From contig JAGXLO010000001.1 in assembly GCA_018334695.1 (NCBI GenBank), forward strand, positions 7,551 through 71,550: a stretch of 64,000 nt of DNA. Direction: 5' to 3'. This stretch comes from Candidatus Cloacimonadota bacterium (GTDB lineage Bacteria > Cloacimonadota > Cloacimonadia > JGIOTU-2). This document shows, one piece after another, positions 3,688 through 57,453 of the stretch (positions are counted from its first letter, which is position 1; the number at the start of each line of letters is the position of its first letter). Under the pieces are notes generated by a model that was given only the letters and a program-made list of their open reading frames with translations, was not told the DNA's origin and ran no database searches. The position numbers and the translations under genes were made by a program.

Positions 3688-4443
3688 ATGTCAGGTCACA
3701 ATAAGTGGAGCTCCATAAAGCACAAAAAAAGTAAAGAAGATGCTAAACGTGGTAAGATTTTTACTAAAATCATTCGCGAGATTACTGTGGCTGCCCGAGA
3801 ACATGGTGGCGATCCGGAAACAAATCCTGATCTGCGAAATGCTATTTCCAAAGCTCAAACTGCCAATATGCCCAAAGAGAATATTGAAAGGGCTGTTAAA
3901 AAAGGTACTGGTGAACTTGAAGGTGTTAATTACGAGCCCTTTTTATACGAAGGTTATGCACCTGGTGGCGTTGCACTAATGATAGAAGGTTTAACTGATA
4001 ACAGTAAACGAACAGTTTCTGAAATAAGACATATACTCTCCTCTTATAATGGTAATTTGGCAGAAAAAGGTGCTGTTGCCTGGAATTTTAATCGAGTAGG
4101 CTCCATTATGATTAAAAAAGATAGTATTGATGAAGATGAATTAATGATGTTAGCCCTGGAAGCCGGAGCCGAAAATATGGAAACTGAAGATGAATTTTAT
4201 ATTCTTTCTACAAAATCTACTGAAATGCATGATGTCACTGCAGCACTGGAAAAAGAGGGTATTAAAATCGAAAAAGCACAATTAATCTATAAACCCAAAA
4301 ATACAGTTCCTGCTAATGATAAAGCCCAAATAATTATAAATGTTATTAACGATCTTGAAGATTTGGACGATGTTCAAGATGTATATGCAAATTTTGATAT
4401 TGATGATGAAGTCCTGGAGCAAGTAGCCAGTAATGAAGGGTGA
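3688..4443 (+). CDS. yebC: YebC/PmpR family DNA-binding transcriptional regulator
   Basis: MSGHNKWSSIKHKK...GKIFTKIIREITVAAREHGGDPETNPDLRNAI is the hallmark YebC/TACO1 N-terminus. It is 251 aa and lies upstream of ruvC-ruvA, the classic arrangement. Confidence 0.85.
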   Translation: MSGHNKWSSIKHKKSKEDAKRGKIFTKIIREITVAAREHGGDPETNPDLRNAISKAQTANMPKENIERAVKKGTGELEGVNYEPFLYEGYAPGGVALMIEGLTDNSKRTVSEIRHILSSYNGNLAEKGAVAWNFNRVGSIMIKKDSIDEDELMMLALEAGAENMETEDEFYILSTKSTEMHDVTAALEKEGIKIEKAQLIYKPKNTVPANDKAQIIINVINDLEDLDDVQDVYANFDIDDEVLEQVASNEG

Positions 4444-43262: not shown

Positions 43263-43336
43263 GGAGCCACCAGCGGGAATTGAACCCACGACCAACTGAT
43301 TACGAATCAGTTGCTCTACCTCTGAGCTATGGTGGC
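43263..43336 (-). tRNA. tRNA-Thr (anticodon CGU)
   Basis: The reverse complement folds as a cloverleaf: acceptor GCCACCA/TGGTGGC, U8, D-arm GCTC-AGAGGTA-GAGC, anticodon stem ACTGA/TCAGT with loop TTCGTAA (anticodon CGT), T-arm GTGGG-TTCAATT-CCCGC, and a U discriminator. The genomic sequence continues CC then T, so the 3' CCA is not fully encoded. Confidence 0.85.
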
Positions 43337-43481: not shown

Positions 43482-43837
43482 GGGGGTGACTGGTTTCGAC
43501 AGGGATCAAGTAGACTGGATAAGCATGTCGGTGAGATTACCTATCCCGTCATAGAATGGTGATGCTAAAAATTCAAGTGCAGATGAAAATCTTGCATTAG
43601 CTGCTTAATTAACAAGTAGCTCATTTGTTTAGTTGTTTCCATTTGCAACTCTACAAATGCCGTTTAAAATGGATATGATTCTGTGATATCTATAAGCAGA
43701 ATTGAATTTTCATAGGTTATACCAGGAAGAGCTTGTTTGTTATGCTATTCTGGAAGAAAAAAAACTAATAGACTAAACATGTAGAAATTCCTTTAGACGG
43801 ATCCCTGGACGCGGGTTCGACTCCCGCCACCTCCATT
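43482..43837 (+). ncRNA. ssrA: tmRNA (ssrA)
   Basis: The 5' end GGGGGUGACUGGUUUCGACAGGG and the 3' end GGACGCGGGUUCGACUCCCGCCACCUCCA form a tRNA-Ala-like acceptor/T-arm with a G3:U70 wobble and an encoded CCA. The internal tag ORF ...(A)KNSSADENLALAA ends with TAA at 43606-43608. Total ~356 nt. Confidence 0.9.
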
Positions 43838-55924: not shown

Positions 55925-56002
55925 CGGGATGTAGCGCAGCACGGTTAGCGCGCTTCGTTCGGGACGAAGAGGCCGCCGGTTCAAATCCGGCCATCCCGAC
56001 CA
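55925..56002 (+). tRNA. tRNA-Pro (anticodon CGG)
   Basis: Cloverleaf: acceptor CGGGATG/CATCCCG with the Pro-typical C1:G72, D-arm GCGC...GCGC, anticodon stem CTTCG/CGAAG with loop TTCGGGA (anticodon CGG), T-arm GCCGG-TTCAAAT-CCGGC, discriminator A, and an encoded CCA. Confidence 0.9.
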
Positions 56003-56065: not shown

Positions 56066-56269
56066 TTATCGTTTATCTACATTATGTACGTAGTGTGCAA
56101 TATAAAGCAAGATCGCAAACAGAATAAAGGGATTAGCAGCTATAAAATAGCTTTCGTGCTGCATAAAATGGAATATATTACTGTGGGGTAGTAAGAGTTT
56201 ATCAAAACTTCCCAAAAACAACAAAAGAGCTGCTACAATAGCAGATAATTTTGCTAGTATTTTTAACAT
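56066..56269 (-). CDS. small hypothetical two-TM membrane protein
   Basis: 67-aa ORF with two hydrophobic helices, downstream of the hup-microprotein pair on the same strand. No family assigned; it may not be a real gene. Confidence 0.3.
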   Translation of the reverse strand: MLKILAKLSAIVAALLLFLGSFDKLLLPHSNIFHFMQHESYFIAANPFILFAILLYIAHYVHNVDKR

Positions 56270-56296
56270 TAATCATTCCTCAGACGATTAAAGAAA

Positions 56297-56392
56297 TTAC
56301 TTATTCTTTTTCTTGTGTCTATTTTTTCTTCTATTTTTTTTGCGTTTATGCTTATTTATTTTTGATTTTCTGTGTTTTTTTCCACCTGGCAT
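56297..56392 (-). CDS. 31-aa polybasic microprotein (MPGGKKHRKSKINKHKRKKNRRKNRHKKKNK)
   Basis: Below the ORF-track size cutoff. The ATG lies 9 nt after the hup stop and is preceded by AAGGAG 6 nt upstream. It is 31 aa, 24 of them K/R/H, and ends at TAA. Confidence 0.4.
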   Translation of the reverse strand: MPGGKKHRKSKINKHKRKKNRRKNRHKKKNK

Positions 56393-56401
56393 TATACTCC
56401 T

Positions 56402-56686
56402 TTATGAATTATGTTTTTTTACTTGTTCGATTAACTTATTTGAAAATTTGAAAGTAGGAACTACGCGTTCCGGTATTTGAATCTTTTCTTGAGTATTAGG
56501 ATTACGGGCAAGACGCGCTTTTCGTTTTTTATTCTTAAAAGTACCAAATGTACGTAACTCTATGTGCTCGCCTTCAATCAAACTTTCCTTAATGTTATCA
56601 AGAAAAGAATCTACGATAATTTTCGTATCTTTCAATATTATTCCAGTCTCCTGGGAAATGGCATGAACTAAGTCAGCCTTTGTCAT
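56402..56686 (-). CDS. hup: HU family DNA-binding protein
   Basis: The start is reset to MTKADLVHAISQETG, which is the HU-like N-terminus, with a GGAGG SD 6 nt upstream. The RTFGTFKNKKRKARLARNPNTQEKIQIP arm motif is characteristic of HU/IHF. Confidence 0.85.
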   Translation of the reverse strand: MTKADLVHAISQETGIILKDTKIIVDSFLDNIKESLIEGEHIELRTFGTFKNKKRKARLARNPNTQEKIQIPERVVPTFKFSNKLIEQVKKHNS

Positions 56687-56812
56687 ACAATCCTCCAAAA
56701 TTTTTTTTGATAAATTTTTCTTTCATATTTATGTGTCAAGGTTTACGAATATTTTAACATTTAAATTGCTAAATAGCATAAAATTAGAGCATATTGAGTA
56801 AATTCATTAGCT

Positions 56813-57223
56813 CTATTCAAAAACAACAGCAATTCCTGTAGCAATTTTATTAACTTTTACGCGTCGCTTGGTTCTAAATACTCTATGGCGCCAGGGTCCT
56901 TTGCCAACAACTTTTGCATAACGATCAATATACACATCTTTATCCACATCGTATTTAACCATCATTACAGCGTCTGCACCAATCTCACGAGCTTTTTCTG
57001 TCATAAGCCTGGTGAACTCCAGCTTTCTGGCTCTTTTGTCCAACGTAACTTCAATGATCCCTATAGGATTATGAGGTAGATTCAATTTATTGGGCGTAAT
57101 CACTATCTCGGCACTCTCTGGTTTCGCGCGGAGTTCATAATTATCATCAGTTTGAATGAATTTAACATTGGATGAACATGAAATAACCATAAGAAGAACT
57201 ATAAAAAATGTAATTCTCTTCAT
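56813..57223 (-). CDS. hypothetical lipoprotein
   Basis: Signal peptide with a VISCSS lipobox. 136 aa. The start overlaps the stop of the upstream small membrane ORF by 1 nt. Confidence 0.5.
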   Translation of the reverse strand: MKRITFFIVLLMVISCSSNVKFIQTDDNYELRAKPESAEIVITPNKLNLPHNPIGIIEVTLDKRARKLEFTRLMTEKAREIGADAVMMVKYDVDKDVYIDRYAKVVGKGPWRHRVFRTKRRVKVNKIATGIAVVFE

Positions 57224-57453
57224 TATTCTTCTCCTTGATTTTCTCTGTCTTTTATTTGCTTCTTTAATTTAAACTTGTAAATTGCCATAAGACTTGAATA
57301 GATTAAGCCAGATATTATTGCTTTTAAAATTGAAATCCTTTGAGTATTAATACTGGGATAAAATACATAGTTCATCAATAAGAAAAGTACAAGAGCAAAT
57401 AAAATAAAATTTATTAAAAAATAAACCAGCAAATTGTCCATTGAAAACTTCAT
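57223..57453 (-). CDS. small hypothetical membrane protein
   Basis: 76 aa with two TM helices. Translationally coupled to the lipoprotein gene. Confidence 0.35.
   Translation of the reverse strand: MKFSMDNLLVYFLINFILFALVLFLLMNYVFYPSINTQRISILKAIISGLIYSSLMAIYKFKLKKQIKDRENQGEE

What the first reader, a model, noticed from the sequence alone, without database searches (positions are those of the whole stretch)
56297..56698. hup followed by a translationally well-signalled 31-aa polybasic microprotein
Nine nt after the HU stop there is an ATG with an AAGGAG SD 6 nt upstream. It opens a 31-codon ORF, MPGGKKHRKSKINKHKRKKNRRKNRHKKKNK, that is 77% K/R/H. The ORF track did not report it because it is below the 60-aa cutoff. 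A protamine-like peptide co-transcribed with the nucleoid protein HU could be a DNA- or RNA-condensing partner or a ribosome-associated basic peptide. I do not recognise it as bL34, bL36, bS21 or Thx.
Basis: seen in the sequence. Interest (0 to 1): 0.5.

Follow-up and report, generated by a model that had tools for sequence, protein, structure and literature searches.

The report
Unannotated ribosomal protein bS22 gene
The 31-residue polybasic ORF after the HU/IHF gene is a real, strongly conserved gene for the tiny 30S ribosomal protein bS22, a known protein that annotation pipelines often miss, so the finding is real but ordinary.

Summary
Two numbers need correcting. K/R/H is 68%, not 77%. 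The SD ends 4 nt before the ATG, not 6.

It is the small-subunit ribosomal protein bS22. It aligns end to end with three bS22 chains from solved ribosome structures (Borrelia 8fmw_V, Flavobacterium 7jil_5, 9i5v_10). None of 20,000 composition-preserving shuffles reach the observed score. A profile of the family hits only those three chains in the whole PDB (E about 1e-12).

The window comes from a Candidatus Cloacimonadota MAG. In 80 of 80 species-representative Cloacimonadota loci the same 28-31 aa ORF follows the HU/IHF gene. The gap is -1 to 22 nt in the 78 complete copies. Variation is concentrated at third codon positions.

The likely function, inferred from homologues, is binding the 16S h44/h45 pocket at the subunit interface.

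The one mildly new point is that HU-(TPR)-bS22 gene linkage also held in all 24 Bacteroidota-type contexts examined, but not in Borrelia. The "protamine-like HU partner" reading is not supported. The "ribosome-associated basic peptide" alternative is right.

The parts
56297..56392 (-). bS22 gene: 31 codons plus TAA stop, encoding MPGGKKHRKSKINKHKRKKNRRKNRHKKKNK
   Evidence: ORF. Full-length match to the solved bS22 chains 8fmw_V, 7jil_5 and 9i5v_10. 0 of 20,000 shuffles reach the score. The family profile hits only bS22 in the PDB, E about 1e-12. Present in 80/80 Cloacimonadota loci, with third-codon-position variation.
56397..56402 (-). Shine-Dalgarno AAGGAG for bS22. It overlaps the last base of the upstream stop codon and ends 4 nt before the ATG.
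   Evidence: Sequence. GGAG/GAGG/AGGA lies in the same position in 61/79 orthologous loci, or 69/79 with looser cores. The background rate of a 5-mer SD before an ATG in the window is 2.7%.
56402..56686 (-). DNABII (HU/IHF-family) gene, 94 aa, ATG 56686, stop 56404-56402. It is the upstream gene of the conserved pair.
   Evidence: PF00216 at 101.7 bits. The NCBIfam IHF-alpha/beta and HU equivalogs all score below their cut-offs. NCBI names the identical protein 'integration host factor subunit beta', Candidatus Cloacimonetes. A GGAGG SD lies at 56696-56692.
56066..56269 (-). 67-aa hydrophobic ORF starting 27 nt after the bS22 stop, with a GAGGAA SD. It may be a third gene of the transcript. 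It is not part of bS22.
   Evidence: It is called as a gene in all same-species contigs. It is conserved at 60-81% aa identity in only the 11 closest species (L013-L023), not across the phylum. No Pfam or NCBIfam hit.

Best explanation
The 31-codon ORF encodes ribosomal protein bS22 of an uncultured Candidatus Cloacimonadota bacterium.

Shown here:
- It is a protein-coding gene under strong purifying selection.
- It is orthologous to bS22 proteins that were built into cryo-EM maps of Borrelia, Flavobacterium and a third ribosome.

Inferred from those homologues:
- The peptide forms a short bent alpha-helix that inserts into the rRNA pocket formed by 16S helices h2, h27, h44 and h45, next to the decoding centre.
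- Its lysine-rich C-terminus reaches 23S H68/H70, forming an extra intersubunit bridge. This may stabilise h44 and modulate access to the aminoglycoside site.

Inferred from gene layout:
- It is transcribed together with the upstream HU/IHF-family gene. The gap is 9 nt, and no terminator-like site was found between the two genes.
- It is translated from its own SD, possibly coupled to termination of the upstream gene.
For: -: phmmer against all PDB sequences returns only three hits. All are bS22 and all align end to end: 8fmw_V E=2e-4, 7jil_5 E=1e-3, 9i5v_10 E=0.012. They share MPxGxK, HKRKK and NRHKK.
- the BLOSUM62 local score is 101-103, against a shuffle mean of 45-50 and maximum of 85 (0/20,000 shuffles reach it). 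Ungapped identity is 18-19 of 28-29, against a shuffle maximum of 15-16.
- a profile of 25 family members hits the same three chains at E=1e-12 to 9e-12, and nothing else in the PDB at E up to 10.
- 22/31 residues are identical to the full-length Borrelia afzelii protein, including the same ...NRHKKKNK C-terminus.
- in 80/80 species-representative Cloacimonadota loci (HU identity 53-90%) the ORF follows the DNABII gene on the same strand. In the 78 complete copies the gap is -1 to 22 nt (median 14), the start is always ATG and the length is 28-31 aa. The other two copies are cut by a contig end after MPCGK....
- all 79 complete DNA copies are distinct. Entropy at codon positions 1/2/3 is 0.37/0.24/1.16. 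Pairwise codon differences are 36,289 synonymous against 11,403 non-synonymous.
- 15 of 31 residues are invariant in the 25-sequence alignment.
- the commonest Cloacimonadota variant is identical to a protein on at least 1,000 contigs, including Bacteroidota. NCBI names a member of that cluster 'AURKAIP1/COX24 domain-containing protein'.
- Literature on location and role: PMC10618245, PMC7797042, PMC12123416, PMC13000457, PMC10081302.
Against: - There is no direct evidence from this organism. It is uncultured, with no ribosome structure, proteomics or ribosome profiling.
- The 16S rRNA is not in the window, so the binding pocket could not be inspected.
- Pfam and NCBIfam give no hit for the peptide. 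This is uninformative, because verified bS22 proteins fail as well: no NCBIfam hit for any of the four tested, and only one sub-threshold Pfam hit, COX24_C at E=0.26.
- The window peptide departs from the phylum consensus at four positions: G3, H7, N20 and R21. Verified bS22 proteins also vary at these positions.
- The physiological role of bS22 is poorly defined. Deletion in M. smegmatis has no growth or global translation phenotype beyond increased aminoglycoside sensitivity (PMC10081302).
- Co-transcription with the DNABII gene is inferred from spacing and synteny, not measured.
Confidence: 0.93

Rival explanations
1. The peptide is a protamine-like partner of the HU/IHF protein. It would be co-expressed with it to condense or neutralise DNA (or RNA) in the nucleoid, instead of or in addition to a ribosomal role.
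For: - Gene linkage to a DNABII gene is very tight and very conserved. It holds in 80/80 Cloacimonadota species, with a gap of -1 to 22 nt in the 78 complete copies.
- A DNABII gene lies upstream in all 24 other contexts examined, either directly or with one TPR gene between.
- The peptide is 58% K+R and would bind any nucleic acid in vitro.
Against: - Close homologues (58-71% identity) are seen bound in a specific rRNA pocket in three independent ribosome structures (PMC10618245, PMC7797042, PMC12123416).
- The pattern of invariant residues (M1 P2 G4 K6 K11 H15 K16 R17 K18 K19 K23 R25 H26 K27 K28) indicates a specific binding site rather than generic charge.
- In Borrelia the orthologue follows miaA, with no DNABII gene nearby, so the linkage is not required for function.
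- No paper in the searched library connects bS22 with nucleoid proteins.
Confidence: 0.04
2. The ORF is not translated. The A-rich stretch is only the 3' UTR of the HU/IHF gene, and the ORF and SD are there by chance.
For: Short ORFs are abundant in this AT-rich DNA: 69 ORFs of at least 20 aa in 5.5 kb. The NCBI gene calls for the source MAG do not include it (L008).
Against: - The frame, the ATG, the length and 15 invariant residues are kept in 79 distinct DNA versions.
- Variation is 3- to 5-fold higher at third codon positions, and synonymous codon differences outnumber non-synonymous by 3.2 to 1.
- Homology to structurally verified proteins is significant.
- An SD is present in most species.
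Confidence: 0.01
3. The ORF is a regulatory leader peptide (uORF) whose translation controls the downstream 67-aa membrane-protein ORF.
For: The 67-aa ORF starts only 27 nt after the bS22 stop. A weak terminator-like hairpin lies at 56244-56230, just inside it.
Against: - The 67-aa ORF is found in only the 11 closest species, whereas the peptide is conserved across the phylum and beyond, with different downstream genes.
- What is conserved is the amino-acid sequence, as expected of a functional protein.
Confidence: 0.01

Closest known systems
bS22 of Borrelia (Borreliella) burgdorferi/afzelii (bb0822; BAPKO_0875; PDB 8fmw chain V)
   Same: - Same length, 31 aa full-length.
- 22/31 residues identical, including MPxG, KI, HKRKK and RRKNRHKKKNK.
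- Also missed by genome annotation (PMC10618245).
- Same expected site: the h2/h27/h44/h45 pocket with contact to 23S H68.
   Different: - The Borrelia gene is reported to use a GUG start (PMC10618245, bb0822), whereas this one uses ATG with a clear SD.
- The Borrelia gene follows miaA, not a DNABII gene.
- Position 3 is Cys in Borrelia and in most Cloacimonadota, but Gly here.
bS22 of Bacteroidota (Flavobacterium johnsoniae Fjoh_1533, PDB 7jil chain 5; Porphyromonas gingivalis AAQ66340.1; NCBI name 'AURKAIP1/COX24 domain-containing protein')
   Same: - 18/29 residues identical to the window peptide.
- The Cloacimonadota consensus variant is 100% identical to proteins in Bacteroidota genomes.
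- Same motifs and length.
- The gene lies downstream of a DNABII gene in the Bacteroidota-type contexts examined.
   Different: - In most Bacteroidota-type contexts a TPR (with or without zinc ribbon) gene sits between the DNABII gene and bS22. RNase E/G often follows.
- Chitinophagaceae-type loci have no SD before bS22, which fits the SD-blind Bacteroidia ribosomes described in PMC7797042. Here and in other Cloacimonadota there is an SD.
Mycobacterial bS22 (MSMEG_0945), mitochondrial mS38 (AURKAIP1/Cox24, Pfam PF08213 COX24_C) and eukaryotic eL41
   Same: These are short, very basic helical proteins in the same small-subunit pocket next to h44. The literature treats them as structural or functional counterparts (PMC10618245, PMC10081302, PMC12123416).
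   Different: - Sequence similarity is too low to detect here. Neither the peptide nor the family profile hits mycobacterial bS22, mS38 or eL41 chains in the PDB at E up to 10.
- The Borrelia paper's supplement reports that identity across the Bbu/Fjo/Msm alignment drops to 19%.
- mS38 is much longer, and eL41 is shorter and unbent.
bTHX, bL34, bL36 and bS21
   Same: They are small, basic and rRNA-embedded.
   Different: No sequence match appears. PDB-wide searches at E up to 10 return only bS22 chains.

Membership tests
bS22 (FCB/spirochaete type) | Significant, full-length sequence similarity to a bS22 protein that was built into ribosome density | tested here: met
   - 8fmw_V E=2e-4, 7jil_5 E=1e-3, 9i5v_10 E=0.012, each aligned over residues 1-28/29.
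- 0/20,000 composition-preserving shuffles reach the score.
- family profile E=1e-12 to 9e-12, with only these three PDB hits.
bS22 (FCB/spirochaete type) | Size of about 28-33 aa, extremely basic, with the motifs MPxGxK ... HKRKK ... NRHKK | tested here: met
   31 aa, 58% K+R and 68% K+R+H. All three motifs are present. All 15 invariant positions of the 25-sequence alignment are present (the window peptide is one of the aligned sequences).
bS22 (FCB/spirochaete type) | A real protein-coding gene conserved in related genomes (purifying selection on the peptide) | tested here: met
   Present in 80/80 Cloacimonadota loci. Codon-position entropy is 0.37/0.24/1.16. Codon differences are 36,289 synonymous against 11,403 non-synonymous.
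bS22 (FCB/spirochaete type) | Physical presence in the 30S subunit, in the pocket between 16S h44/h45 (with h2 and h27), contacting 23S H68/H70 | not testable with these tools
   Known only for homologues (PMC10618245, PMC7797042, PMC12123416). The organism is uncultured, and no rRNA gene lies in the window.
bS22 (FCB/spirochaete type) | Fold is a single bent alpha-helix | not tested
   A structure prediction of an isolated 31-aa polybasic peptide would be uninformative. The peptide is ordered only on rRNA, and such sequences tend to be predicted helical regardless. For that reason no job was run.
Pfam PF08213 COX24_C / NCBI 'AURKAIP1/COX24 domain-containing protein' (mS38 superfamily) | Match to the Pfam/NCBIfam model above its threshold | tested here: inconclusive
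   The window peptide has no hit at E up to 10. In the positive control, four known or consensus bS22 proteins gave no NCBIfam hit, and only 9i5v_10 gave a sub-threshold COX24_C hit (E=0.26, 11.7 bits against a cut-off of 23). NCBI applies the COX24 name to a member of the 90% cluster that contains the Cloacimonadota consensus sequence.
HU / IHF (DNABII) - the upstream gene | Bac_DNA_binding domain over the full length, and assignment to HU or to IHF alpha/beta | tested here: inconclusive
   PF00216 scores 101.7 bits over residues 5-94 of the 98-aa ORF, so family membership is met. All NCBIfam equivalogs are below cut-off: IHF-alpha 82 against 111, IHF-beta 81 against 115, HU-alpha 52 against 162. 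'hup' is therefore only a family-level label. NCBI calls the gene IHF subunit beta.

The most novel reading that the evidence does not exclude
The DNABII gene followed by bS22 is an ancient, selectively maintained operon of the Cloacimonadota/Bacteroidota-type lineages. The evidence is 80/80 Cloacimonadota species plus 24/24 other contexts, with or without an inserted TPR gene and often followed by RNase E/G, while the outer flanks vary freely. This would reflect a real functional tie. For example, this particular HU/IHF paralogue might act on rRNA or in 30S maturation. Alternatively, nucleoid protein and ribosome output might be co-regulated through one transcript, rather than the linkage being mere inherited gene order.
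Probability: 0.15. Interest if true: 0.5.

Novelty: new member of a known kind. Interest (0 to 1): 0.22.

Why it matters
In practical terms this is an annotation gap. A universal-looking ribosomal protein gene of an entire uncultured phylum is absent from the NCBI gene calls of the source MAG. Elsewhere it is labelled "hypothetical protein". Ribosomal-protein inventories, and any completeness or phylogenomic marker sets built from them, therefore under-count bS22.

It also extends the documented range of the FCB/spirochaete-type bS22 to Cloacimonadota. That supports the prediction in PMC10618245 that bS22 will turn up in more bacteria, because the rRNA pocket it binds is structurally conserved.

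The conserved DNABII-(TPR)-bS22 neighbourhood gives a simple synteny rule for finding the gene in FCB-type genomes. It also raises a small open question about why a nucleoid-protein gene and a ribosomal-protein gene are kept together.

It does not reveal a new kind of molecule or mechanism.

Tried and rejected
- Pfam and NCBIfam scans of the peptide gave no hit. I did not take this as evidence against bS22, because verified bS22 proteins fail the same scans.
- The search for homologous proteins refuses queries under 40 aa. I did not pad or duplicate the peptide to get round this.
- Exact look-ups of the F. johnsoniae, 9i5v and M. smegmatis bS22 sequences found nothing in the collection. My first M. 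smegmatis sequence, from memory, had two residues swapped relative to the published one.
- As a result, an idea from memory could not be tested and is not used: that actinobacterial bS22 also sits beside a small DNA-binding protein gene.
- P0047 (29 aa) was too short for a context look-up.
- A literature search found no paper linking bS22 to Cloacimonadota or to nucleoid-associated proteins. Two earlier attempts failed on term syntax.
- Structure prediction and fold search were considered and not run, because they are uninformative for an isolated 31-aa polybasic peptide.
- The + strand ORFs overlapping the gene (56251..56451 and 56313..56480) are poly-Phe/Leu mirror images of the Lys codons. 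The antisense frames are open in only 7, 32 and 59 of the 79 relatives. I rejected them as genes.
- The sigma-70 scan gave no convincing promoter for the operon. It found 12 promoter-like sites against 9.0 ± 3.1 expected, so I make no promoter claim.

Full report
**1. The observation**

The ORF is real and sits at the stated place.
- On the minus strand the DNABII (HU/IHF-family) gene ends ...TCA TAA at 56404-56402.
- Nine bases follow (AGGAGTATA). An ATG at 56392 then opens 31 codons, MPGGKKHRKSKINKHKRKKNRRKNRHKKKNK, ending in TAA at 56299-56297.
- AAGGAG lies at 56402-56397 and shares its first A with the upstream stop codon.

The SD ends 4 nt, not 6, before the ATG. K+R+H is 21/31 = 68%, not 77%. 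The DNABII gene most likely begins at the ATG at 56686, behind a GGAGG at 56696-56692. That gives the 94-aa MTKADL... protein that all homologues share, rather than a start at the TTG at 56698.

A 31-codon ORF is not significant on its own in this 31-36% GC DNA. One search lists 69 ORFs of at least 20 aa in 5.5 kb. The SD does carry information. A 5-mer SD at -16..-4 precedes 2.7% of all ATGs in the window, against 25% of the first ATGs of long ORFs.

**2. What it is**

A phmmer search of the peptide against every PDB chain sequence returned exactly three hits. All are the small ribosomal protein bS22, and all align from residue 1 to the end:
- 8fmw_V (Borreliella burgdorferi bS22, E=2e-4)
- 7jil_5 (Flavobacterium johnsoniae bS22, E=1e-3)
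- 9i5v_10 ("AURKAIP1/COX24 domain-containing protein", E=0.012)

Polybasic sequences can match by composition, so I shuffled the peptide 20,000 times. No shuffle reached the observed local score (101-103, against a mean of 45-50 and a maximum of 85). None reached the observed ungapped identity either (18-19 of 28-29, against a maximum of 15-16).

A profile built from 25 family members hits the same three chains at E=1e-12 to 9e-12, and nothing else in the PDB at E up to 10.

The full-length Borrelia afzelii protein (BAPKO_0875, 31 aa, "hypothetical protein") shares 22/31 residues with the window peptide, including the same ...RRKNRHKKKNK tail.

Pfam and NCBIfam gave no hit. The positive control shows that this means nothing. 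The verified Borrelia and Flavobacterium proteins also get no hit, and only 9i5v_10 gets a sub-threshold COX24_C match.

**3. Organism and conservation**

The identical peptide and gene order occur in at least six independent metagenome assemblies and in the NCBI MAG GCA_018334935.1 (contig JAGXKY010000001.1). The window probably comes from that MAG. Its NCBI gene calls skip the 31-aa gene.

The DNABII protein is annotated [quoted passage not shown].

An alignment of its orthologues retrieved 80 loci from 80 species-representative genomes, almost all labelled Cloacimonadota. Their DNABII identity to the window is 53-90%.
- In 78 of them a 28-31 aa ORF of the form MP[CSG]G[KR]K...HKRKK...[ND]RHK[KR] starts -1 to 22 nt (median 14) after the DNABII stop. 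It is on the same strand and always starts with ATG.
- The other two loci end at a contig edge a few codons into the same gene (...ATGCCCTGCGGAAA).
- So the count is 80/80.

All 79 complete DNA copies differ from one another. Entropy at codon positions 1/2/3 is 0.37/0.24/1.16. Synonymous codon differences outnumber non-synonymous by 36,289 to 11,403. Fifteen of 31 residues are invariant in the 25-sequence alignment. An SD core precedes the ATG in 61-69 of the 79 copies. This is the signature of a translated gene under purifying selection.

**4. How it most likely works**

By homology (inferred, not shown for this organism), bS22 is a bent alpha-helix buried in the pocket formed by 16S helices h2, h27, h44 and h45, beside the decoding centre. 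Its basic C-terminus touches 23S H68/H70 and so adds an intersubunit bridge (PMC10618245; PMC7797042; PMC12123416).

In F. johnsoniae it is seen in 70S complexes but is lost from isolated 30S subunits (PMC13000457).

In M. smegmatis its deletion is viable, with no change in growth or global translation, but with increased aminoglycoside sensitivity (PMC10081302).

It is regarded as the counterpart of mitochondrial mS38 and eukaryotic eL41. That relationship is structural and is not detectable by sequence here.

The 9-nt gap, with no terminator-like site found between the genes, implies that the gene is transcribed with the DNABII gene and translated from its own SD. That step is an inference.

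**5. Rivals**

- A protamine-like HU partner is not supported. The invariant-residue pattern points to a specific site, homologues sit in the ribosome, and in Borrelia the gene follows miaA with no DNABII gene nearby.
- A non-coding 3' UTR is excluded by the codon-position pattern.
- A leader peptide for the downstream 67-aa hydrophobic ORF is excluded. That ORF exists in only the 11 closest species, while the peptide is conserved far more widely.

**6. What is mildly new**

I looked at the contexts of three other bS22 variants. P0050 is named by NCBI from Chitinophagaceae/Terrimonas. P0049 and P0051 come from unlabelled contigs whose Por_Secre_tail neighbours suggest Bacteroidota-type genomes.

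In all 24 places a DNABII gene lies upstream on the same strand. It is either adjacent (L109, L113) or separated by one TPR (with or without zinc ribbon) gene. The outer flanks vary freely, and RNase E/G follows in the mutY-type contexts. Those DNABII proteins are 37-51% identical to the window's.

So DNABII-(TPR)-bS22 is a conserved module of these lineages but not of spirochaetes. No paper in the searchable library mentions this linkage, or bS22 in Cloacimonadota. That is a limited negative. Whether the linkage means anything beyond inherited gene order is open. I put a real functional tie at about 15%.

**7. Verdict**

- The object is an unannotated orthologue of a known ribosomal protein in a phylum with no ribosome structure. 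That makes it a new member of a known kind.
- Interest is low (about 0.2). The value lies in fixing annotation and in the synteny rule.

Noticed in passing
L093-L115 (loci fetched); compare window 56297-56686: Outside Cloacimonadota the bS22 gene sat downstream of a DNABII (HU-family) gene in all 24 contexts examined. Usually one TPR or zinc-ribbon-TPR gene (165-321 aa) lies between them. In contexts flanked by mutY, RNase E/G follows. The outer flanking genes vary widely, so HU-(TPR)-bS22 is the conserved module. In Borrelia (L116-L118) bS22 follows miaA instead.
   Followed up: partly
L093-L099 versus L104, L108-L115 and window 56397-56402: The Chitinophagaceae-type loci have A/T-rich, SD-less sequence before the bS22 ATG. 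The window, the Cloacimonadota loci and several unlabelled loci have a clear GGAG. This fits SD-blind Bacteroidia ribosomes against SD-using relatives, and suggests that Cloacimonadota do not sequester their anti-SD.
   Followed up: partly
window 56066-56269 (-): A 67-aa hydrophobic ORF (MLKILAKLSAIVAALLLFLGSF...) starts 27 nt after bS22 with a GAGGAA SD. It has no family hit. It is conserved at 60-81% identity in only the 11 closest species, where Lon also follows. It is probably a small membrane protein of unknown function.
   Followed up: partly
L008 (NCBI GCA_018334935.1, JAGXKY010000001.1) 4295-4390: The gene calls recorded for the NCBI MAG skip the 31-aa gene, while the Logan, ENA and JGI calls on identical DNA include it. 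Other Cloacimonadota copies in public sources are labelled only 'hypothetical protein'. This is an annotation gap for a ribosomal protein.
   Followed up: yes
window 56230-56244 (-): A terminator-like hairpin (CTGCTATTGTAGCAG followed by CTCTTTTGTT) lies about 25 nt inside the start of the 67-aa ORF, 52 nt after the bS22 stop. The stem is weak, at 6 pairs with 3 G-C. It may be chance, or a partial terminator after the DNABII-bS22 pair.
   Followed up: no
window 55925-56002 (+), 43263-43336 (-), 43482-43835 (+): tRNA-Pro(CGG) is convergent with the operon, between the 67-aa ORF and Lon. Further away lie tRNA-Thr(CGT) and a tmRNA with tag peptide ADENLALAA.
   Followed up: no
window 56813-57223 (-) and 57223-57453 (-): Upstream of the DNABII gene are a 136-aa putative lipoprotein and a 76-aa membrane-like ORF. 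The lipoprotein has a weak, far sub-threshold similarity to the Leptospira LA_1841 salt-regulated family (E=6e-5, 22.8 bits against a cut-off of 220). Both have a detectable homologue in only one of the 80 related loci, L013.
   Followed up: no
protein cluster 1 (P0060, P0061): The 90%-identity cluster that holds the 29-31 aa bS22 proteins also lists two 'phosphoenolpyruvate carboxylase' entries of 579 and 976 aa. They are probably gene-call fusions or a clustering artefact, not real relatives.
   Followed up: no
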